Positions 12,216 to 50,908 of a stretch of 64,000 nucleotides of DNA are shown in pieces; the stretch's first letter is position 1, and every line of letters begins with the position of its first letter. Below the pieces are notes generated by a model. That model saw nothing but the letters and a program-made list of their open reading frames with translations. It searched no databases and was not told where the DNA came from. The stretch is from Holosporales bacterium (GTDB lineage: Bacteria > Pseudomonadota > Alphaproteobacteria > UBA3830 > JAIRWN01): assembly GCA_031263535.1 (NCBI GenBank), contig JAISFO010000023.1, positions 16,516 through 80,515 on the forward strand. Reading direction: 5' to 3'. The translations under genes were made by a program, and so were the position numbers.

Positions 12216-12310
12216 TACTAATAAGTAATTGTTACATCGGCTGGCTTACCGATTATGTTAACCAATTCCTGACGACTTGTGTGAAGCTTACATGTTGAAG
12301 TACCAGTGCA
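12216..12310. repeat. inverted repeat, left arm (orphan inverted copy of the LRR ORF 3' end)
   Basis: The reverse complement matches 13004-13098 at 83 of 95 positions by hand alignment. On the minus strand it reads CTGTSTCKLHTSRQELVNIIGKPADVTITY*, preceded by an in-frame TGA. Confidence 0.85.
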
Positions 12311-12313
12311 TCA

Positions 12314-13096
12314 GTGCCGAATTTTACAAGACTTAAAACTGGCGGAACCGTCAACTTCCAAGATTGCACAGGTCTCAATGGCCCTGCTCCGGAATTCACT
12401 GCTCTTACGAGTTGCAGGATCATCACTTTTCAAGGCTGTACTGGGTTGACCGGCACTCCAACTTTCCCTGTTTTTGCAAATTTAATAAGCGGAGTCATAG
12501 ACTTCCGGGGCTGTACAGGGTTAACTGAAGCGCCGACTTTCCCAGAATTGCAGAATGCAACTGGGGGTTATAGTAATAACTATATAGACTTCACTGGTTG
12601 TACTAAAATGGTTGGGCAAGCACCAGTTTTTCCTAAACTAACCACCATGAATGGTAATTGGGGCTTTTCTATCGACTTCAGCGGACTTACAGGGTTAACC
12701 GGCGCGCCTTCATTCTCAGCGCTTACGAACTTAAACGGAACTATAAACTTCCAGGGCTGTACAGGACTGAATGGGATAGCTGTTTTCTCTGCTCTTCAAA
12801 CAATAGGCGGAACCATAAATTTCTCTGGCTGCACGAGTTTGGCGGGAATCACGTTAGAGAATTGCACCGTCAGTGCAGGCACTTGGAATGGGATTAATTT
12901 AACCAACACTGGTATCACTACAGTTAACCTCAGCGGCTCTGCATTATCCGGCACTTTGGATATGACAAAGCTTACTAACCTGACGACGCTTATTTTAACT
13001 GGGTGCACTGGTACTTCAACATGCAAGCTTCACGCAAGTCGTCAGGAATTGGTTGAAATAATCAACCAGCCAACTGATGTAACAATCACATATTAG
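12314..13096 (+). CDS. leucine-rich-repeat-like protein with a GCTGL(T/N)G repeat; 5' end doubtful
   Basis: 260-aa ORF with seven copies of (I/V)xFxGCTGLxG spaced about 24-30 aa apart. The only start codon is GTG at 12314, right after an in-frame TGA. No SD and no signal peptide. Confidence 0.55.
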   Translation: MPNFTRLKTGGTVNFQDCTGLNGPAPEFTALTSCRIITFQGCTGLTGTPTFPVFANLISGVIDFRGCTGLTEAPTFPELQNATGGYSNNYIDFTGCTKMVGQAPVFPKLTTMNGNWGFSIDFSGLTGLTGAPSFSALTNLNGTINFQGCTGLNGIAVFSALQTIGGTINFSGCTSLAGITLENCTVSAGTWNGINLTNTGITTVNLSGSALSGTLDMTKLTNLTTLILTGCTGTSTCKLHASRQELVEIINQPTDVTITY

Positions 13097-13098
13097 TA
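13004..13098. repeat. inverted repeat, right arm (last 30 codons plus stop of the LRR ORF)
   Basis: See the left arm. Weaker similarity continues about 20 nt past the stop codon. Confidence 0.85.
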
Positions 13099-13147
13099 AT
13101 TGAAGTAAAGCCGAACAAAACCGCCCCCTCTACGCTATCTTGGTCTT

Positions 13148-13156
13148 GGGGGGGGG
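13148..13156. repeat. G9 homopolymer
   Basis: Counted directly. Confidence 0.95.
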
Positions 13157-13294: not shown

Positions 13295-13303
13295 CCCCCC
13301 CCC
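13295..13303. repeat. C9 homopolymer abutting the stop codon of ORF 13303..13635
   Basis: Counted directly. Complementary to the G9 tract 138 nt upstream. Confidence 0.95.
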
Positions 13304-13635
13304 TAAAGATCATTGCTTCTGCATATTTTGATTTGTGATATTCTGCTGTCGCCAAGGAATGAGTTGATTTTGTCTAGTAGGATTGATGAACTGTATTGCG
13401 CTTCGATCAGCTTAGTGCTTTTGGCTTTAATATACAAAACCAACCCGTTCTCGTTAGCTAGTTTTTCTGGCCAGGTAAACTCGCTTAAGCACTCGCCAAC
13501 GATCTCTTTCCAATAGATATAAAGATCAGAAAACATCAGCCCTTTCTTTTTCATTATTGGCTGGCAAATGCTGTAAGCCAAATCGCACAGACGTACAGGT
13601 TTGTTGATGCGCTTTATATTGCTGAGCTTAGGCAT
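13303..13635 (-). CDS. DUF721 domain protein (DciA-like)
   Basis: 110 aa. Pattern YWKEIVGECLSEFTWPEKL..NGLVLYIKAKSTKLIEAQYSSSILLDKINSFLG fits the DUF721 consensus as I remember it (W..IVG..L...T.P..L..G.L.......A.EL....IL..IN). Confidence 0.55.
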   Translation of the reverse strand: MPKLSNIKRINKPVRLCDLAYSICQPIMKKKGLMFSDLYIYWKEIVGECLSEFTWPEKLANENGLVLYIKAKSTKLIEAQYSSSILLDKINSFLGDSRISQIKICRSNDL

Positions 13636-34380: not shown

Positions 34381-35727
34381 CTACTCTCCAGCGTACCTGT
34401 TGATTCTGTCCAAAAGCTGAGACAAACGTTTGTGTAGTTGCTTAAGGCCGGTGTCTATTGGCTTGTGCCCCGCTATCATACTGTGGACTGAGTTAAAAAT
34501 TTCTGTACTGGCCTGGCTGTAAAGTGAGCCAAACTGAGATGACGGCCTTACGACCATGTGATCCAACATATCGCTGAGTTTGGCGAAGAATGGTTGAGCT
34601 TGAATCATGGCTTTATCCTTATACAGATTTGGTCTAGACGGAGATATGCCGCCCTCAATTGCCCGACGTCTTTGCTCTTTGTGAGAAGTCAGGTATCGCA
34701 AAAACGCCACGGCTTCTTTAGGATGTTTTGAGAATTTCGATATACCCAGCGACCAACCGCCCAAAATCCCAACGTGCCGACCTCCTGGCCCTATCGGCAA
34801 TGGAGCTACATCGACTTTGCCAGCTAAGGGGCAATCAGGCGAGCTTAATAGTGCAAAAGCGTATGGCCAACTGCGCATAAACACGGCGTTACCAGACTGA
34901 AACACGCCTCTGGCTTCTTCTTCTGTGTATCCAAGTACGCCGGAGGGCGCTACGGCGCCAATCCATTTATATATCATATTTAGCATACGCCGATTGGACG
35001 GCGTATCGACTGCCAGCTTGCCTTTATTATCCATTATCCCACCGCCAGCAGAACAGAACCACTCGACAACGTTAACGGTCAGCCCTTCATAGGACTTCCC
35101 TTGAAACACATACCCCCACATTCTGGAATTGCCGTTTGCGCGCTCTTTATCCTGAATGTCGGTTGCTATTTTTTCCAGATCATCCCAAGTTTTTGGGACA
35201 CTGTGGCCATATTTCTCAAGCAGATCTTTGCGGCAGTATAATATCCCCATGTCTATGTACCAGGGAATGGCGACCAGCTGACCGTCAATCGTGTTATTTG
35301 CTATACAAACTTGGAAAAATTCGGGAATTTCGCCTTTAAAGTATTCTTTCAGATCAATGAGGTAGCTCGCCAATATGCCTGGCCAAGTAACGTCGATAAT
35401 CAAGATATCAAGGTCCTGGGATTCTGCCCGTAAAAGCTGTAAATACAGGTTCAGCCGCTCATTGCTTTCATTTGGCAGGGTGATTATTTCAACGCGATGC
35501 CCAGTTAAAGCTTCCCATTCCTTTGCCGCTTGCTGATAGAGCTCTAGCTCACGCCCCTTACACCCGCAAGTTACTTTCAGGGTAACCTCCTGAACATCGG
35601 CATCTAGCGACGATTTATCGTCTTTATGCTCTGCAGTCGGCTGTTCATCGGATAAGTCGATGCCGAAGGATTCTGCGGACAACAAGGCCACAATACACAT
35701 GACCAATGTTCTTAGACTTTTTTTCAT
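34381..35727 (-). CDS. carbohydrate ABC transporter substrate-binding protein (CUT1 type)
   Basis: 448 aa with a signal peptide and family-1 solute-binding protein architecture (DILIIDVTWPGILASYLIDL). Confidence 0.88.
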   Translation of the reverse strand: MKKSLRTLVMCIVALLSAESFGIDLSDEQPTAEHKDDKSSLDADVQEVTLKVTCGCKGRELELYQQAAKEWEALTGHRVEIITLPNESNERLNLYLQLLRAESQDLDILIIDVTWPGILASYLIDLKEYFKGEIPEFFQVCIANNTIDGQLVAIPWYIDMGILYCRKDLLEKYGHSVPKTWDDLEKIATDIQDKERANGNSRMWGYVFQGKSYEGLTVNVVEWFCSAGGGIMDNKGKLAVDTPSNRRMLNMIYKWIGAVAPSGVLGYTEEEARGVFQSGNAVFMRSWPYAFALLSSPDCPLAGKVDVAPLPIGPGGRHVGILGGWSLGISKFSKHPKEAVAFLRYLTSHKEQRRRAIEGGISPSRPNLYKDKAMIQAQPFFAKLSDMLDHMVVRPSSQFGSLYSQASTEIFNSVHSMIAGHKPIDTGLKQLHKRLSQLLDRINRYAGE

Positions 35728-35760
35728 AGATTTCTGTTCACAAATCGTGTCGAAGGCGTC
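35615..35760. repeat. inverted repeat, left arm (native 5' region of the binding-protein gene)
   Basis: The reverse complement matches 35975-36120 at 134 of 146 positions by hand alignment. Covers 33 nt of leader, the ATG and the first 37 codons. Confidence 0.9.
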
Positions 35761-35974
35761 AAAAGCCTAACCAATTACCTACACCAGAGCTTGCTTTATT
35801 GCAACTATAGAAAAGCAATAATACACGCCAAACGCCATAGAAGCTGTATCAATGTTATCCAATTTAGCATGATCAGGGCTTAGAAGCAGGTAATTATTGA
35901 GTAAAGTATTTTGTTTTATTTAAAAAAATGGTACATTTTGCCAGAATTATTTAGGTTTTGTTAATTAGGCTTAT

Positions 35975-36120
35975 GATACCTTCGACACGACTTATGGACA
36001 GAAATCTATGAAAAAAAGTCTAAGAACATTGGCCCTGTGTATTGTGGCCTTGTTGTCTGCAGAATCCTTCGGCATCGACTTATCCAATGAACAGCCGACT
36101 GCAGAACACAAAGATGATAA
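35975..36120. repeat. inverted repeat, right arm (inverted duplicate of the binding-protein gene 5' region)
   Basis: See the left arm. The 214-bp spacer 35761-35974 lies between the arms. Confidence 0.9.
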
Positions 36121-36136
36121 TTTGATTTTGCGTTGA
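36008..36136 (+). pseudogene. truncated duplicate of the binding-protein gene (signal peptide plus about 20 aa only)
   Basis: Reads MKKSLRTLALCIVALLSAESFGIDLSNEQPTAEHKDDNLILR*, compared with the native MKKSLRTLVMCIVALLSAESFGIDLSDEQPTAEHKDDKS... Confidence 0.6.
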
Positions 36137-36156
36137 GGTATTTATGATGGTGACTG

Positions 36157-37362
36157 GTGGTGCAAATAGAAAAGACATGGGGGGGGGGGCCTAACCCTCT
36201 CTTTGGCACTAGTACTGAGGGGCAATCTTGCCCTGAACTAGGTGCTAGATATTGGGATGATTATGTTTTTGAAGAAGCCGGCACTAGCTTTAAGTTATCT
36301 TTGGATAGAGTGCATAACTTTAAATTTAGTAACGGTTTTAATCTAAGAAGAGCTCAGTTCGAAGAACTGGCAATCGAGGAAGCTATTCAAGCTTCCGAGC
36401 CTTGCGTTAGCAAGCCCAAACTGGGCCTATCTAGAATACAGATCGCTGGCCGTTCAAATTTTTATGATCTATTTGACAAATTTGCATCAATGTTGTTTAT
36501 GGCCTCATCGATAACATTTTTATCCGGATGCTCAAGTCCAAATAAAGATTCCTTTCGCCCGCATTTGTATCTAGGTGTGACCAGTAATTATTCAGACTCA
36601 AATGCTACCCTAGAGCCAAAGTACTTCGTGCCTGGCTTGGTTATAGGGGATTTCGTAAGTGGTGGTTTCTTAGTAGGGCGTAATGGGGTTGTTACTGTTC
36701 CTGATGCGGCAGGGGCTGTTCCTGCTCGGCCTTTCAACCAAAACGGTATTGTGCTTGGCGGTATAGATGGAAATTTAGCCACAAAAAACTCAGGAATCGG
36801 TACTGGCGCAATAGTTGGCTTAGAGATGAAAGTTTTTAAGTTGCGAATGTCCTTAGAGGCTGATTGTTCCAATATAAACTACGGAAAGGATAAGCAAAAA
36901 GACAATCTGTTTGAGAAATTTTCTTTTGGGTTGTCGTACAGACTTGGCTTAAAACTAGGTAACTATTTCACGCCATATTTGCTTGCTGGAGTAGAGTTCA
37001 GTACCTTCAAGGGACGCGGTGAAAATCCGCACTTTAGGGATAGCGGAGATTATACCACTGATCCAAACGGTGCAGGCAGGACAGTCTATCGTAGTATTGA
37101 TAGGCTTTTTTACAATATAGAGAGCAGCAAGATGATTCAAAGTCCACGATTGGGCTGTGGATTTGAGATAAGCTTTTTTGAGCGTTTTAAATTTAGATTT
37201 GATGCGTTTTGGACTTTAAAGAGAAGATTTGCTGGTAAGTTCAGAACAGATACTGTGGCACCAGTGGGGGTGGGTTTTGATCCATCCTATGGCGCCGATG
37301 CTATCATGACCTGGTATCACAAGAAATTCTCCACTCGCTTCGGCATCATTATGGATTTGTAG
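36157..37362 (+). CDS. outer-membrane beta-barrel / lipoprotein-like protein, paralog 1 (start uncertain)
   Basis: 401-aa ORF. From residue 112 (ATG 36490, MLFMASSITFLSGCSS) it is colinear with ORF 40382..41233. The first 111 codons are unrelated and contain the G11 tract. Confidence 0.6.
   Translation: MVQIEKTWGGGPNPLFGTSTEGQSCPELGARYWDDYVFEEAGTSFKLSLDRVHNFKFSNGFNLRRAQFEELAIEEAIQASEPCVSKPKLGLSRIQIAGRSNFYDLFDKFASMLFMASSITFLSGCSSPNKDSFRPHLYLGVTSNYSDSNATLEPKYFVPGLVIGDFVSGGFLVGRNGVVTVPDAAGAVPARPFNQNGIVLGGIDGNLATKNSGIGTGAIVGLEMKVFKLRMSLEADCSNINYGKDKQKDNLFEKFSFGLSYRLGLKLGNYFTPYLLAGVEFSTFKGRGENPHFRDSGDYTTDPNGAGRTVYRSIDRLFYNIESSKMIQSPRLGCGFEISFFERFKFRFDAFWTLKRRFAGKFRTDTVAPVGVGFDPSYGADAIMTWYHKKFSTRFGIIMDL
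36179..36189. repeat. G11 homopolymer in the 5' region of ORF 36157..37362
   Basis: Counted directly: g36179-g36189. Confidence 0.95.
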
Positions 37363-37870
37363 GCTGCCGGCAGGTCGAAAAGTACCTCTGGATTAGTCTA
37401 TTTGGGCTTGCTAAAGCAAGGCTCGGAAGCCTGAATGGCTTACTCGATTGCCGATTCTGCGAATCGAGCTTTGCTCAAATAAAAATCATTACTTGATCTA
37501 GAATTGTAAAGCTTATCTAGACGATGAGTCGGTGCGATTTTATAAATGCCCAAGCAAACTCTACTTCCAGTCTGATGTGACGCAGCAGGCCCGATTGTCA
37601 GTTCTACGAACCGAACTTTATCTAGGTAAAATTATAGCTTGGTCTAAAATCAAAGTCTTATCCAAATAAGAACAGTTACAGTTTACCAGCTCTACGAACC
37701 GAGTTTTTTCTGAATTGAAATCATTATAGACAGATTAGGCTTTTATCAAAAATGATTGCTATAACCCAGCTACAAAGTGTATATCTAGGCTCAAAGAGAC
37801 CATTGAGAGGAAGATGAAGTGGGCGCAAGTACTGGTTTGTTGTTTGTTGGCCGAAGGTGAAGTGGTTGGT

Positions 37871-40214: not shown

Positions 40215-40381
40215 ATGTGTTATTTTTGCCACCGTCATTTAGCCTACGCAACTTAGAATTTACCATTATAAAGACAAGAAATATTATATTACTTATCATA
40301 TTTACAAAAAAGTCGATGTTAAAGTCGAAAAATCTAGGGAGATGCATTCTTGATTGCGCTTAGGGTATTACTTTTAATAGC

Positions 40382-41233
40382 TTGCTACTGTCCGGTTGTT
40401 CAAGTCGGGACAAAGATTCTTTTCGTCCACACTTATATCTGGGCGTAACAAGTAATTACGCTGGATCTAAAGCTACTTTAGAACCGTTATATTTCGTGTC
40501 CGACCATCCTGCGGGAGTAGGTGGCGTAGTTGATGCTGGATGGGTCGTAGGTCGTGGCGGCGTGATGGCTGTGGTAGGCGTGCCGGGTGGTGCTTATAAT
40601 GCAAACAGATACGTGTTGTATGATACAGACAAGGATCTGCTGACTAAAAATTCCGGAGTTGGCTTTGGTGCGATTATCGGCCTAGAGATAAAAGTTTTCA
40701 GACTGCGTATGTCTTTAGAAGCCGATTGTTCTATGTTGGATCACAAAGGTAATAAGCAAAAGGATCATTTGTTTGAAAATTGCTCTTTTGGTTTTTCGTA
40801 TAGACTTGGGGTTAGGTTAGGAAACTATTTCACACCTTATGTACTGGCCGGATATGAATTCAATACCCTTAAAGAGCGCGGTGTAAACCCACATTTTAGA
40901 GAGCCGGGTAGATTTGAATTTACTGGCTTAGGAGTGCTGCCACCTCATGGTTTTGTTGATTCTGAAAGGCTGGCTTACAGCTCAGACAAAGGAACAACTA
41001 TGTCGCCTAGAGTGGGATGTGGCTTTGAGATAAGTTTCTTTGAGCGTTTTAGATTCAGATTTGATGTATTTTGGACTTTAAGGGAGAAGGTTTTTAGCAA
41101 ATTTAGGACTTTAAATACTGTACCTGATTTACCTCCTCTGACTACTGGTTTGCATGATTATAGCTGGGAGCAAAATATGGTCCTGCACCACCAAAAATTC
41201 AACACCAGATTCGGCTTAATTATGGATTTGTAG
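40382..41233 (+). CDS. outer-membrane beta-barrel / lipoprotein-like protein, paralog 2 (signal peptide apparently frameshifted)
   Basis: 283-aa ORF beginning MLLSGCSS. Shares DSFRPHLYLGVTSNY, LRMSLEADCS, GNYFTPY, GCGFEISFFERF.FRFD.FWTL and TRFG.IMDL with paralog 1. An SD plus TTG at 40350 encodes MIALRVLLL.. in another frame. Confidence 0.6.
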   Translation: MLLSGCSSRDKDSFRPHLYLGVTSNYAGSKATLEPLYFVSDHPAGVGGVVDAGWVVGRGGVMAVVGVPGGAYNANRYVLYDTDKDLLTKNSGVGFGAIIGLEIKVFRLRMSLEADCSMLDHKGNKQKDHLFENCSFGFSYRLGVRLGNYFTPYVLAGYEFNTLKERGVNPHFREPGRFEFTGLGVLPPHGFVDSERLAYSSDKGTTMSPRVGCGFEISFFERFRFRFDVFWTLREKVFSKFRTLNTVPDLPPLTTGLHDYSWEQNMVLHHQKFNTRFGLIMDL

Positions 41234-48971: not shown

Positions 48972-49592
48972 ATGAAAAAGATTATAATAACATCAGTGGT
49001 AGCATTGCTTATCCCTGAAATCGCAAATTGTATGCGAAGAACTGATTCTTACAAAGAATGCAGAGTTGACAATACGTTGCTTGAAAACTGTATGCGATTT
49101 ACCTTAGACGGAGCTGATTATTACCAAAAAGGCAAAGTTGTTAAGGTTACCGCTTCCTTTTACCCCAGTAGGATTCTTACAAGAGATCGAATTTGTATAG
49201 GTGGAGAGGTCTATGGAGTATTATATGCGCTAGCAAAAAATGGTCGTAATACAGCAAGTTCTGGATCCGTATACTTTCCGTCTAGTATAGAGACGATCGG
49301 CATTGAATGTTTTCGCAATGCTCTTCGAGATGCGTTGTCATTCATAATCTTTGAGCAAAACTCACATCTGAAAAAGATCGGATATGATGCCTTTTCTGGG
49401 TGTGCTTCTCTGGTATCTATATGCATTCCGTTCAGTTTAGAAACTATAGGAGAAAAGTGTTTTTTAAACTGCCGCAGTCTAAGCAGCGTAACGTTTGAAT
49501 CAGGCTCTCGATTGGCAGATATCGGAAAAGACGCCATTCCTGCAGAAACCGTAGTTAACGGGTGTCCTTTTCCTATACCAGGAAGGGAATAA
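48972..49592 (+). CDS. BspA-type leucine-rich repeat protein, exported
   Basis: 206 aa with leader MKKIIITSVVALLIPEIANC. Repeats of the type SICIP.S.E.IG..CF..C.SLS...FESGS.L..IG..AF. Confidence 0.8.
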   Translation: MKKIIITSVVALLIPEIANCMRRTDSYKECRVDNTLLENCMRFTLDGADYYQKGKVVKVTASFYPSRILTRDRICIGGEVYGVLYALAKNGRNTASSGSVYFPSSIETIGIECFRNALRDALSFIIFEQNSHLKKIGYDAFSGCASLVSICIPFSLETIGEKCFLNCRSLSSVTFESGSRLADIGKDAIPAETVVNGCPFPIPGRE

Positions 49593-49658
49593 ACGCAAGC
49601 AGTTTGGCATCAGTTTATAAACAAAGCTGACCCAGCATCCATTGCATGTAATTACCAA

Positions 49659-49696
49659 GCCCCCGCCGTTCTATGGCCGGGGAGGGACTTTTTTCA
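49659..49696 (+). terminator. GC-rich imperfect hairpin plus T6 after the first LRR gene
   Basis: gcccccgccg ttctat ggccggggaggg followed by acttttttc. Confidence 0.45.
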
Positions 49697-49918
49697 GGCT
49701 GGCCGATGCAGATCGTGCGATTTACTACATAAAATATTCTCAAATACTATTATCAAGTGCAGATCGAGATTTTGTATCAAACCTTGCCGAGCCCCATTGC
49801 CAAGCCAAATTTCATGTAGATTTCAACAACAATCTTAAAATAAGCAAAAAAATAATTTGACAAAAGCATAATTTTGCATTATGTGTATAGCTAGTTAACC
49901 AATCGTTAAGGAGAAATT

Positions 49919-50908
49919 ATGAAAAAGATTGCAATGATAGCATCGGCAATTACGCTGCTTGTCCCTGAAATTGCAAGTTGTGGGCGAGTTGCAAATCCTG
50001 GGTATATTATAGATAGAACTTCTTACCAAGAGGATGGAAGCGGAGGTGTTAGCGCCAGATCGGCAGCTACAGGTCCCACTTGGCTCCTTAGAAATATCAT
50101 TAGTATAGGTGGGGAAGTTTGTGAGGTGCGTACATTAAATGGCTTTAATACGTTTGATGGTGGTGGTAGGCATAGCTTGCGATCCATATGCATTTCAGCA
50201 AGTATAAAAACGATCAGCGAAAAATGTCTTGAGCTTTGCGACAGTCTAACCGTAACGTTTGAATCAGGCTCTCGACTGGAAACGATCGAAGAATTCGCCT
50301 TTCGCTATTCTTATCTGGCTTCTATATGCATTCCATCCAGTGTAGAGATGCTTGGCAGTGCGAGTTTTGTTGGATGCCAAAGTTTAAGCAGCTTGATGTT
50401 TGGATCGGGCTCAAAACTGAAAACAATATCAGGCTTCGCCTTCAATAGATGTTCTTCTCTGGCATCTATATGCATTCCGTCCAGCGTAGAGAGGCTTGGC
50501 AACGTAAGTTTTGTGGAATGCCGCAGCCTAAGCAGATTAACGTTTGGATCAGGCTCTCGAATAAGAACGATCGAAGAAGGGGCCTTTTCCGGATGTTCTT
50601 CTCTGGCATCTATATGCCTTCCGTCTAGCTTAGAAAGGGTCGAGGGAAAGTGTTTTAAAGATTGTACCAGTCTAATCATCGTAGAGTTTAAGCCTAACTC
50701 TCAACTGAAAACGATAGGAAGCTTTGCCTTTAGCGGTTGCTCTTCTTTGGCATCTATATGGCTTCCATCCAGTGTAGAAAGGATCGAGGAGGGATGTTTT
50801 GAAGGATGCGGCAGTCTAAGCATCGTAGAGTTTGAGCCTGGCTCTCAACCGATAACGATTGAAGAAGGCGCTATTCCTGAAAGCGTTGAGACTGTGGGTT
50901 TAGATTAA
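49919..50908 (+). CDS. BspA-type leucine-rich repeat protein, exported
   Basis: 329 aa with leader MKKIAMIASAITLLVPEIASC and five 46-48-aa double LRR units (SICIPSSVE.LG..SF..C.SLS.L.FGSGS.L.TI...AF..CSSLA). Confidence 0.85.
   Translation: MKKIAMIASAITLLVPEIASCGRVANPGYIIDRTSYQEDGSGGVSARSAATGPTWLLRNIISIGGEVCEVRTLNGFNTFDGGGRHSLRSICISASIKTISEKCLELCDSLTVTFESGSRLETIEEFAFRYSYLASICIPSSVEMLGSASFVGCQSLSSLMFGSGSKLKTISGFAFNRCSSLASICIPSSVERLGNVSFVECRSLSRLTFGSGSRIRTIEEGAFSGCSSLASICLPSSLERVEGKCFKDCTSLIIVEFKPNSQLKTIGSFAFSGCSSLASIWLPSSVERIEEGCFEGCGSLSIVEFEPGSQPITIEEGAIPESVETVGLD
50183..50896 (+). repeat. tandem coding repeats, five units of 138-144 bp, inside the second LRR gene
   Basis: Units start at 50183, 50321, 50465, 50609 and 50753, each beginning tc(c/t)atatg(c/g)(a/c)tt. 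Confidence 0.85.

What the first reader, a model, noticed from the sequence alone, without database searches (positions are those of the whole stretch)
36144..36195. G11 tract sits between a good SD-ATG and the 400-codon surface-protein ORF; one G fewer would fuse them
GAGG (36135-36138) followed by ATG at 36144 opens the frame MMVTGGANRKDMGGGA*, which stops at 36192-36194 just after the G11 run (36179-36189). The long ORF (36157..37362) is in the adjacent frame and has only GTG starts without an SD. With G10 or G13 the SD-ATG would read straight into it (…KDMGGGPNPLFG…). Homopolymeric G/C tracts placed like this are the classic slipped-strand phase-variation switch of surface proteins in several pathogens. 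The alternative is a homopolymer sequencing error. The arrangement parallels the LRR locus: an inverted-repeat pair, then about 50-60 nt, then a poly-G tract (13148-13156) next to a surface or repeat-protein gene.
Basis: partly seen in the sequence, partly recalled or inferred. Interest (0 to 1): 0.55.

Follow-up and report, generated by a model that had tools for sequence, protein, structure and literature searches.

The report
Slippery repeat switch before membrane-protein gene
An 11-G run breaks the reading frame between a conserved start codon and an outer-membrane protein gene in a Holosporales bacterium. Sister gene copies carry other slippery repeats at exactly the same spot, so it is most likely a reversible on/off switch, an ordinary mechanism not previously reported in this group.

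Summary
G11 (36179-36189) lies between GAGG-ATG (36144) and a 403-codon open frame. G10 or G13 fuses them; G11 or G12 stops after 16 or 32 codons.

The window is a Holosporales MAG. The gene belongs to a family of at least 7 paralogous lipobox-bearing outer-membrane beta-barrel proteins.

Three results support the switch reading:
- In two relatives the homologous site, with the same ATG upstream and the same conserved block downstream, carries (AG)13, also one slip from in-frame.
- A paralogue in the same MAG is in frame there and reads PPPPP, probably a C run (DNA not available).
- The 112-codon leader between the tract and the lipobox is open (shuffle P=0.00045) and has gene-like codon usage.

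The internal ATG 36490 is a weaker start candidate. It has no SD. The signal peptide's K/R lies upstream of it. Two members have Ile at that position.

Best reading: slipped-strand translational phase variation, currently OFF in the consensus (confidence 0.6). Switching itself is unproven because no reads were available. Rivals are gene decay, internal initiation that makes the tract irrelevant, and a homopolymer miscall. The suggested parallel with the LRR locus does not hold.

The parts
35965..36120 (+). Right arm of inverted repeat I1. It is an inverted duplicate (156 nt, 92%) of the 43 nt upstream plus the first 37 codons of the sugar-ABC substrate-binding-protein gene (34381..35727, minus strand).
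   Evidence: Seven differences in the 113 coding nt, four of them at third codon positions.
36008..36136 (+). 42-aa ORF (MKKSLRTLALCIVALLSAESFG...), the copied SBP signal peptide. Its TGA (36134-36136) overlaps the SD of the leader start, so translational coupling is possible (inferred).
36135..36138 (+). GAGG Shine-Dalgarno-like motif, 5 nt before ATG 36144.
   Evidence: It is the only SD-like motif before any in-frame start of this gene.
36144..36178 (+). Conserved start codon and first codons of the leader (MMVTGGANRKDM). The ATG aligns with ATG 66 of L006, ATG 2154 of L001 and the Met of paralogue P0015 (MxGAKRAGARE).
36179..36189 (+). G11 homopolymer, the hypermutable repeat. G10/G13 is in frame (ON). 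G11 is OFF with a stop at 36192. G12 is OFF with a stop at 36239.
   Evidence: The homologous site carries (AG)13 in L006 and L001 and PPPPP in P0015.
36192..36194 (+). TAA that ends the ATG-36144 frame in the G11 state. The TAA within (A/C)TTAACCC is conserved in L006 and L001.
36239..36241 (+). TAG that ends the other OFF frame (G9/G12 state). It is conserved in L006 (168-170) and L001 (2256-2258), where it ends the 34-aa peptide of the current (AG)13 state.
36191..36254 (+). Conserved block just 3' of the repeat (TAACCCTCTCTTTGGCACTAGTACTGAGGGGCAATCTT...). It aligns without gaps to L006 120-183, and L001 2209-2222 matches its first 14 nt exactly. It reads NPLF.(T/I)ST... in the same frame as the lipobox.
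36190..36489 (+). Leader between tract and signal peptide, about 100 codons. It is open, has gene-like codon usage, evolves fast, and is homologous to the leaders of paralogues P0015, P0026 and P0014 and of L005.
36316..36420 (+). Sense copy of a dispersed element of about 105 nt (core palindrome CAGTTCGAAGAACTG; reads ...NFKFSNGFNLRRAQFEELAIEEA...) embedded in frame in the leader. It is the left arm of inverted repeat I2.
36490..36531 (+). Internal ATG plus hydrophobic region and lipobox (MLFMASSITFLSGC; Cys codon 36529-36531). There is no SD and no K/R after the Met.
36529..37362 (+). Mature protein: a conserved N-terminal segment (CSSPNKDSFRPHLYLGVTSNYSDSNATLEPKYFVP) followed by a probable outer-membrane beta-barrel. 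The stop is at 37360-37362.
   Evidence: (omega 0.15)
37401..37505 (-). Antisense copy of the 105-nt leader element (right arm of I2, 80%), 39 nt after the stop. Partial further copies lie at about 37599-37623 and 37687-37726. The same arrangement occurs downstream of the homologues in L006 and L008.
40350..41233 (+). Second family member in the window (54% identical). It has an ordinary SD-TTG lipoprotein start and no repeat, but a 1-nt deletion in its signal peptide relative to the L002 orthologue.

Best explanation
The G11 run is a simple-sequence contingency repeat inside the translated 5' leader of an outer-membrane lipoprotein/beta-barrel gene.

Proposed steps:
1. Translation starts at the SD-preceded ATG 36144 (inferred).
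2. It must pass through the repeat and a leader of about 100 codons to reach the hydrophobic segment and lipobox (LSGC, Cys at 36529).
3. Signal peptidase II would then release the mature protein (inferred).
4. Slipped-strand mispairing at replication changes the run length (inferred).
5. G10 or G13 gives the full 405-aa precursor (ON). G11, the assembled state, and G12 terminate after 16 or 32 codons (OFF). Any remaining expression would depend on weak SD-less internal initiation at ATG 36490.

Shown: the frames, the conserved ATG, the conserved block, the different repeats at the same site, and the coding character of the leader.

The gene is one of at least 7 paralogues, so the family could give combinatorial surface variation in the manner of the opa genes.
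For: 1. Frame arithmetic was verified.
2. The homologous site in two related loci (L006 93-118; L001 2181-2206) carries (AG)13, between the same ATG and the same conserved block. In both, 12 or 15 units give an in-frame leader and 13 gives a 34-aa peptide.
3. Paralogue LBL30_00165 (P0015, same MAG) is in frame from MIGAKRAGARE through ITPPPPPLF, the position of the repeat, to the lipobox.
4. Long SSRs are otherwise rare. The window has four runs above the census thresholds (T10, G9, C9, G11). The only other long repeats in the roughly 28 kb of related loci are the two (AG)13. G/C runs of 9 or more: 0.09 expected.
5. The leader frame has no stop in 112 codons (shuffle P=0.00045), while the other frames have 3 and 19 stops.
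6. Its codon-usage score of 0.121 lies within real genes (0.150+/-0.043). It exceeds 99.7% of off-frame and 96.5% of intergenic frames.
7. Differences from paralogues are in-frame only: a 19-codon indel against P0015 and none against L005.
8. Only ATG 36144 has an SD.
9. A K/R lies 4-6 residues upstream of the internal M/V/I in all 7 aligned members and in P0026. P0015 and L006 have Ile at that position. L006 has no usable start between the repeat and the lipobox.
10. The mature part is under purifying selection (omega 0.15) and intact in the window.
Against: - No read-level data, so length heterogeneity and reversibility are untested.
- A hydrophilic extension of about 113 aa before a lipoprotein h-region is far longer than any signal peptide I know of, so export of the fused precursor is an assumption.
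- The leader shows no detectable amino-acid constraint: omega 0.52, similar in other frames, on only 40 codons.
- All three loci whose repeat is visible at the DNA level are OFF.
- Several family members carry non-repeat lesions, so decay is happening in this family. These are TAA in L005/L008, a 1-nt deletion in L006, a 1-nt deletion in paralogue 2, and a truncated P0026.
- The C run in P0015 is inferred from protein sequence only.
- An ATG or GTG at the internal position is shown in four members (window, L005/L008, L001, L003). P0026 reads Met and P0014 Val there, with codons unseen.
Confidence: 0.6

Rival explanations
1. Gene decay. The G11 frameshift is a fixed inactivating lesion in a degenerating paralogue family of a host-restricted bacterium. 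The repeats are mutational debris and there is no adaptive switching.
For: Other members carry ordinary lesions:
- a nonsense TAA in L005/L008, identical in two assemblies
- a 1-nt deletion in L006
- a 1-nt deletion in the signal peptide of window paralogue 2
- P0026 ending after 194 aa, and P0012/P0013 ORFs beginning inside the h-region

All DNA-visible repeats are OFF.
Against: - Three kinds of long repeat at one homologous site is not what random decay gives, in sequence where such repeats are otherwise nearly absent.
- Apart from the tract, the window gene is intact over 405 codons. It has gene-like codon usage and omega 0.15 in the mature part.
Confidence: 0.15
2. The tract is irrelevant to the protein. 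Translation starts at ATG 36490, giving a 13-residue lipoprotein signal peptide. The upstream part is a 5' UTR or uORF region built from repeats. At most, the tract tunes transcription or mRNA stability.
For: - An ATG or GTG is seen at this position in the four members with DNA there (window, L005/L008, L001, L003). P0026 reads Met and P0014 Val, codons unseen.
- The JGI call for P0006 starts there.
- The middle of the leader is a copy of a dispersed 105-nt element and evolves fast.
- No bacterial lipoprotein with a pre-sequence of about 125 aa is known to me.
Against: - There is no SD before 36490 or its homologues.
- The n-region K/R is encoded upstream of it in every member examined.
- P0015 and L006 have Ile there, and L006 has no alternative start.
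- The leader is open in the window, P0015, P0026 and L005. It has in-frame indels only and gene-like codon usage.
Confidence: 0.15
3. Homopolymer length miscall. The true majority length is G10 (or G13) and the gene is simply intact. Alternatively, slippage by RNA polymerase on the run supplies in-frame mRNA without heritable switching.
For: - The window is a short-read MAG consensus, and long G runs are error-prone (general knowledge).
- The fix needed is exactly one base.
- NCBI annotated the long ORF as intact from GTG 36160.
Against: - An error cannot explain why a run of 10 or more G exists at this site, nor the (AG)13 at the homologous sites. Those are also out of frame in two independent assemblies.
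- Even a true G10 would remain a hypermutable tract in a coding leader, so this rival changes the current state and not the mechanism.
Confidence: 0.1

Closest known systems
Neisseria Opa (opacity) proteins: CTCTT repeats in the leader-peptide coding sequence (PMC3745409)
   Same: A multicopy family of small outer-membrane beta-barrel proteins. Each copy has a slippery repeat in the sequence that encodes the pre-protein leader, so each copy is independently in or out of frame. JGI even labels these proteins 'opacity protein-like surface antigen'.
   Different: - There is no sequence membership. Pfam gives only a sub-threshold OMP_b-brl hit and no Opacity-family hit.
- The repeats here are mono- or dinucleotide and not pentameric.
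- The repeat lies about 115 codons before the cleavage site in a long hydrophilic leader, whereas I recall the Opa repeat lying within an ordinary signal peptide.
- The mature protein begins with a lipobox Cys.
Poly-G tracts in Neisseria coding regions: lgt genes (PMC2192423), pgtA (PMC2193922), and pilC in the signal-peptide region (own knowledge)
   Same: A homopolymeric G run of about 10-17 near the 5' end of an ORF. A change of +/-1 G toggles the frame.
   Different: Different proteins and lineage (Betaproteobacteria). Switching there is demonstrated experimentally; here it is only inferred.
Helicobacter pylori OipA and Hop outer-membrane proteins: CT dinucleotide repeats in the 5' region (PMC10564699)
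   Same: A dinucleotide repeat in the 5' coding region of outer-membrane protein genes ((AG)n on the coding strand in L006 and L001). ON/OFF status differs between copies and strains.
   Different: No homology. The window copy uses a G run and not the dinucleotide repeat. The long leader is absent in H. pylori.
Bartonella badE and other mononucleotide SSR contingency loci (PMC11466379)
   Same: A host-associated alphaproteobacterium. Mononucleotide repeats cause reversible frameshifts in a surface adhesin gene family.
   Different: Those are trimeric autotransporter adhesins and not small barrels. The repeats lie within the gene body. Switching was shown by experimental evolution.
Treponema pallidum tpr genes: poly-G tracts (PMC7864442, identified from its title and term counts only; the paper was not read)
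   Same: Poly-G tracts associated with a putative outer-membrane protein gene (TprL) in a bacterium that is hard to culture.
   Different: As I recall, those tracts are promoter-proximal and act on transcription. Here the tract lies after a start codon, and the frame logic is translational.

Membership tests
SSR-mediated translational phase variation (contingency locus) | A simple-sequence repeat long enough to be hypermutable (roughly 8 or more G/C, or several dinucleotide units) | tested here: met
   G11 at 36179-36189. (AG)13 at the homologous site in L006 and L001.
SSR-mediated translational phase variation (contingency locus) | The repeat lies inside the translated region, so unit gain or loss switches between a full-length product and early termination | tested here: met
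   In silico, G10/13 give 405/406 aa and G11/12 give 16/32 aa. The same logic holds for (AG)12/15 against 13. The leader shows coding character. Use of ATG 36144 as the start is inferred from the SD and its conservation.
SSR-mediated translational phase variation (contingency locus) | Repeat-length polymorphism within a population or between close isolates | not testable with these tools
   No reads were available. Scans of metagenome contigs for the family and for the block found nothing. The DNA of the other paralogues in the MAG was not on record. Indirect only: one paralogue is ON (P0015) and three loci are OFF.
SSR-mediated translational phase variation (contingency locus) | Reversible, heritable ON/OFF expression of the product | not testable with these tools
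   Needs experiments.
SSR-mediated translational phase variation (contingency locus) | The product is surface-exposed or otherwise at the host interface | tested here: inconclusive
   There is a lipobox, and the conserved C-terminus ends in hydrophobic residues. Pfam OMP_b-brl scores 20.8 bits against a cut-off of 28.7, and 7 of 11 members match weakly. The AF2 model is all-beta with mean pLDDT 59.5. The top PDB hits (E<=1e-3) are beta-barrels, mostly small outer-membrane proteins plus secretin barrels, but with TM 0.2-0.3.
Neisseria Opa / Pfam Opacity family | Significant match to the Opacity family profile | tested here: not met
   Pfam scans of the window protein and of 10 homologues return only sub-threshold OMP_b-brl.
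Bacterial lipoprotein (Lgt/Lsp substrate) | Lipobox [LVI][ASTVI][GAS]C preceded by a hydrophobic region and a positively charged n-region | tested here: met
   L-S-G-C has its Cys at 36529-36531, after the h-region MLFMASSITF. Family members differ at the -3 to -1 positions but the Cys is invariant. The K/R of the n-region lies upstream of the internal Met. Lipidation itself was not testable.
Promoter-spacer SSR switches (for example Neisseria porA/opc, Bordetella fim) | The repeat lies between or just upstream of the -35 and -10 hexamers | tested here: not met
   The consensus scan finds no plus-strand sigma-70-like site near 36100-36300. The tract lies 33 nt after an SD-ATG.
Gene-conversion antigenic variation (Anaplasma msp2/p44-type expression site plus silent cassettes) | Truncated donor cassettes lacking their own 5' and 3' ends, and a single expression site | tested here: inconclusive
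   The paralogues share conserved ends and a variable centre, and some have disrupted 5' ends. However, the visible copies are full-length genes with their own leaders. The DNA of most copies was unavailable.

The most novel reading that the evidence does not exclude
This outer-membrane protein family may carry a modular switch. A long translated leader of 100-125 codons is assembled from a mobile 105-nt element. At one fixed site in it, three different repeat chemistries (G run, C run, AG dinucleotide) have been recruited independently. An antisense copy of the leader element just after the stop codon is conserved in three members. It could pair with the leader in the mRNA only when ribosomes terminate early, which would reinforce the OFF state. 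This would be the first contingency-locus system described in Holosporales, and possibly the longest lipoprotein pre-sequence known.
Probability: 0.2. Interest if true: 0.75.

Novelty: new member of a known kind. Interest (0 to 1): 0.55.

Why it matters
Contingency loci are known mainly from pathogens that face adaptive immunity. A repeat-switched, multicopy outer-membrane protein family in Holosporales would change that picture. The review read here describes the order as obligately host-associated, mostly with protists (PMC11909080). Stochastic surface variation would then also pay in protist or invertebrate-gut symbioses. Full-text searches found no paper linking phase variation with this order.

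There is also a practical point. Gene callers split or truncate these genes. JGI starts most of them at an internal GTG, and NCBI starts the window gene at a GTG 19 bases upstream of the tract. The family's real 5' architecture is therefore invisible in the databases.

If the leader of about 125 aa is really translated and removed, it would be an unusual export signal worth testing.

Tried and rejected
- **Paralogue DNA.** Exact-product look-ups for P0003, P0004, P0005, P0009, P0015 and P0018 were not on record. The poly-C inference for LBL30_00165 therefore could not be checked.
- **Metagenome scans.** Scans with family peptides and with the conserved block found nothing. The genome scan found only the Gsp477_bin58 MAG, whose contigs break inside or just upstream of the leaders.
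- **Leader profile search.** Searching the 5.8-billion-protein set with the leader profile returned nothing, probably because low-complexity words saturated the candidate list.
- **OFF-frame peptide search.** A search with the OFF-frame peptides, meant to detect repeat-number variants, returned nothing.
- **Representative search.** The giant proteins P0017 and P0021 are spurious, being summed weak repeat matches.
- **Rfam.** The only hit is a meaningless sub-threshold miRNA match caused by the I1 hairpin.
- **RNA folding.** The fold around the tract is not significant, z = -1.4.
- **Promoter-spacer switch.** Rejected: no promoter-like site was found and the tract follows a start codon.
- **LRR-locus parallel.** Rejected.
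- **Poly-G assembly join or amplification foldback.** Considered and rejected. The run is much shorter than an assembly k-mer. The flanking inverted repeats are 80-92% identical, not 100%, so they are diverged copies.
- **Structure.** The model has low confidence (pLDDT 59.5), so the fold search supports only a generic outer-membrane barrel.
Full report
**Observation**

- GAGG lies at 36135-36138 and ATG at 36144.
- That frame reads MMVTGGANRKDMGGGA and stops at 36192-36194.
- The G run is exactly 11 bases (36179-36189).
- The adjacent frame is open from 36154 to the stop at 37360-37362.
- Editing the run in silico gives a 405-aa fusion for G10 and 406 aa for G13. G8, G11 and G14 give 15-17-aa products. 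G9 and G12 give 31-32-aa products ending at TAG 36239-36241.

The run is not a chance feature. Runs of 9 or more G/C occur at three sites in the window, against 0.09 matches expected from dinucleotide shuffles.

**What the gene is**

The 401-aa ORF is identical to a hypothetical protein of a Holosporales MAG (NCBI locus tag LBL30_02310). Ten related protein clusters cover only its C-terminal 55-72%.

Alignment shows a family with three parts:
- a conserved N-terminal segment, (L)SGCSSPNKDSFRPHLYLGVTSNYSDSNATLEPKYFVP
- a variable centre
- a conserved C-terminal part

LSGC is a lipobox. Its hydrophobic region starts at the internal ATG 36490.

Evidence for an outer-membrane barrel is generic only.
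- Pfam gives a sub-threshold OMP_b-brl match, 20.8 bits against a cut-off of 28.7. Seven of 11 members match weakly.
- The AlphaFold model is all-beta but of low confidence, with mean pLDDT 59.5.
- Its significant PDB matches are beta-barrels, mostly small outer-membrane proteins (OmpT, NspA, OmpA, OpcA, Pla) plus secretin barrels. TM-scores are only 0.2-0.3.

I therefore call it a probable outer-membrane beta-barrel lipoprotein. It is not an Opa-family member.

Cluster look-ups show that four of the 'homologues' are paralogues in the same MAG: LBL30_00165, _01190, _02865 and _04440. A fifth is LBL30_03990. The window holds a further copy at about 40350-41233. The genome therefore has at least seven members.

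**The decisive comparison**

Two related metagenome contigs show the region upstream of the lipobox at the DNA level. They are L006 (gene 54% identical) and the 3' end of L001. In both, the site that holds G11 in the window holds (AG)13.

The alignment is unambiguous.
- The leader ATG aligns in all three: window 36144, L006 66, L001 2154.
- The repeats occupy the same columns.
- The next 64 bases (window 36191-36254) align to L006 without gaps, and L001 aligns without gaps up to its contig end.

In all three, the block reads NPLF.(T/I)ST... in the frame of the lipobox. In both relatives, (AG)12 or (AG)15 would put the ATG in that frame. The assembled (AG)13 gives a 34-aa peptide ending at the same conserved TAG.

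NCBI's version of paralogue LBL30_00165 (P0015, 387 aa) is in frame throughout. It reads MIGAKRAGAREITPPPPPLFSTNTKERSCSKLRVRYCGDF... QFEELPTEETSKASEPYVSKPKLGL... SRFASILFLASLVAFLPSC. The five prolines fall exactly where the relatives read ATTAACCCTCTC. An expansion of that CCC to a run of up to 16 C is the simplest reading. I could not obtain the DNA, so this is inference.

One homologous site thus carries G11, (AG)13 twice and probably a C run. Elsewhere, repeats above the census thresholds are rare. The window holds only three besides G11 (T10, G9 and C9), and the roughly 28 kb of related loci hold none besides the two (AG)13.

**Is the stretch between the tract and the lipobox translated?**

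Arguments for translation:
- The frame has no stop in 112 codons. The other two frames have 3 and 19 stops, and only 0.045% of shuffles are open.
- With stop codons ignored, its codon-usage log-odds score is 0.121 per codon. Real genes in the window score 0.150+/-0.043. Only 0.3% of off-frame windows and 3.5% of intergenic frames score higher.
- It differs from P0015 by a single 19-codon in-frame gap. It shows no indel against L005 over 40 codons.
- The leaders of P0026 and P0014 are also open in frame.
- The only SD-like motif before any in-frame start is the GAGG before ATG 36144.
- All eight members examined have a K or R 4-6 residues upstream of the internal M/V/I. That is the charged n-region a signal peptide needs. 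It would be missing if translation began at the internal codon.
- That codon is Ile in P0015 and L006. L006 has no ATG, GTG or TTG between the repeat and the lipobox except a GTG six codons before the Cys.

Arguments against:
- Over the 40 comparable codons, the leader is 66% identical in DNA, against 81-84% for the mature part. Its omega of 0.52 is no better than in the other frames. The frame is kept, but the amino-acid sequence appears not to be.
- A hydrophilic extension of about 113 residues before a lipoprotein hydrophobic region is unprecedented to my knowledge.

**Mechanism proposed**

Shown: the frames, the conserved start, the conserved block, repeat turnover at one site, and the coding character of the leader.

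Inferred:
- Translation starts at 36144.
- The run changes length by slipped-strand mispairing.
- In-frame lengths give a precursor whose leader is removed at the lipobox.
- Out-of-frame lengths stop after 16 or 32 codons and leave at most weak SD-less initiation at 36490.

The assembled state is OFF by one G. With at least seven paralogues, only one of them seen ON, the family resembles opa-type combinatorial variation (PMC3745409).

**Rivals**

1. **Decay.** The family contains ordinary lesions.
   - L005 and L008 carry TAA for Tyr, identical in two assemblies.
   - L006 has a 1-nt deletion.
   - Window paralogue 2 has a 1-nt deletion in its signal peptide.
   - P0026 is truncated, and the P0012 and P0013 ORFs begin inside the hydrophobic region.

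   Decay does not explain three repeat types at one site. Nor does it explain an otherwise intact gene with omega 0.15.
2. **Internal initiation at 36490, with the tract irrelevant.** The arguments are given above.
3. **Homopolymer miscall or transcriptional slippage.** Either would change the present state. Neither would remove a hypermutable tract from a coding leader.

**Surroundings**

The 'inverted-repeat pair' before the tract (35615-35770 and 35965-36120; 156 nt, 92%) is an inverted duplicate of the 5' end of the neighbouring sugar-ABC binding-protein gene.
- It leaves a 42-aa ORF (36008-36136).
- That ORF's stop overlaps the leader's SD.
- Four of its seven coding differences are synonymous.
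- It may supply expression signals or translational coupling. This is speculation.

The middle of the leader (36316-36420) is a copy of an element of about 105 nt with the palindrome CAGTTCGAAGAACTG.
- It forms tandem in-frame arrays elsewhere (L007 19-879).
- An antisense copy follows the stop codon in the window (37401-37505), in L006 and in L008.
- I do not know what this conserved 5'-sense and 3'-antisense arrangement does.

**The LRR-locus parallel fails**

G9 (13148) and C9 (13295) lie 3' of two convergent genes. They are the inner ends of a 17-nt inverted repeat around 138 AT-rich bases and have no similarity to the leader.

**Comparison and novelty**

The mechanism is the classical one, with known examples:
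- Opa CTCTT repeats in the leader-peptide sequence (PMC3745409)
- Neisseria poly-G tracts (PMC2192423, PMC2193922)
- H. pylori CT repeats in oipA (PMC10564699)
- mononucleotide repeats in Bartonella adhesins, another alphaproteobacterium (PMC11466379)

Full-text searches found no report of phase variation or contingency loci in Holosporales.

I classify this as a new member of a known kind. It has two unusual features that remain to be proven: the long repeat-derived leader and repeat-type turnover at a fixed site.

Noticed in passing
window 35615-35770 and 35965-36120; ORF 36008-36136: A 156-nt inverted duplication (92%) of the 5' end of the sugar-ABC substrate-binding-protein gene. It covers 43 nt upstream plus 37 codons. 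It leaves an intact 42-aa signal-peptide ORF whose TGA overlaps the SD of the OMP leader. Four of its 7 coding differences are synonymous. A 194-nt spacer between the arms carries the promoter-like sites for the SBP operon.
   Followed up: partly
window 36316-36420 (+), 37401-37505 (-), ~37599-37623, ~37687-37726; L006 1134-1241; L008 1190-1285, 1401-1442, 1837-1887; L007 19-879: A dispersed element of about 105 nt with the core palindrome CAGTTCGAAGAACTG. It sits in sense orientation and in frame inside the OMP leader. An antisense copy lies 30-190 nt after the OMP stop in three family members. In L007 a tandem in-frame array forms a 286-aa ORF. Its function is unknown. Possibilities are 5'-3' mRNA pairing, a terminator, or mobility of the cassette.
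   Followed up: partly
window 40350-41233: Second paralogue of the OMP family. It is syntenic with P0010 in L002 and has an ordinary SD-TTG lipoprotein start. It has a 1-nt deletion (TTGC-TACTG against TTGCGTACTG) that frameshifts its signal peptide. It is either a pseudogene or an assembly error.
   Followed up: partly
window 13141-13156 and 13295-13312: G9 and C9 are the inner ends of an inverted repeat of about 17 nt, TG(G/A)TCTT(TA)G9. The repeat encloses 138 AT-rich bases between the convergent LRR gene (12314-13096) and a 110-aa gene (13303-13635, minus strand). The C9 directly abuts that gene's stop codon. The fold is not significant (z = -1.1). It could be a small MITE-like insert or a bidirectional terminator.
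   Followed up: partly
window 12216-12310 and 13004-13098: A 95-nt inverted repeat (87%) brackets the LRR ORF. The upstream arm is an inverted copy of the gene's own 3' end. It is the third diverged inverted duplication of 95-156 nt next to a surface or repeat-protein gene in this window.
   Followed up: no
L005 and L008 221-223; L006 ~271: The conserved N-terminal segment GVTSNYSD is hit repeatedly. The closest relative has TAA for Tyr, identical in a Logan and a JGI assembly. L006 has a 1-nt deletion there. Gene callers therefore start these genes at the downstream GTG (VP...), which is preceded by GGAG.
   Followed up: partly
L001, L002, L003, L005/L008 contig ends: Contigs of the related MAG and samples break inside or just upstream of these OMP leaders. 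This suggests that the leaders and their repeats are the assembly-limiting repeats of these genomes.
   Followed up: no
window 3400-8100 and 49300-50900: There are three tandem units of about 1.4-1.6 kb (74-89% identical segments) at 3400-8100. A 144-nt tandem repeat array lies at 50308-50883, with related copies near 49400. Neither was examined.
   Followed up: no
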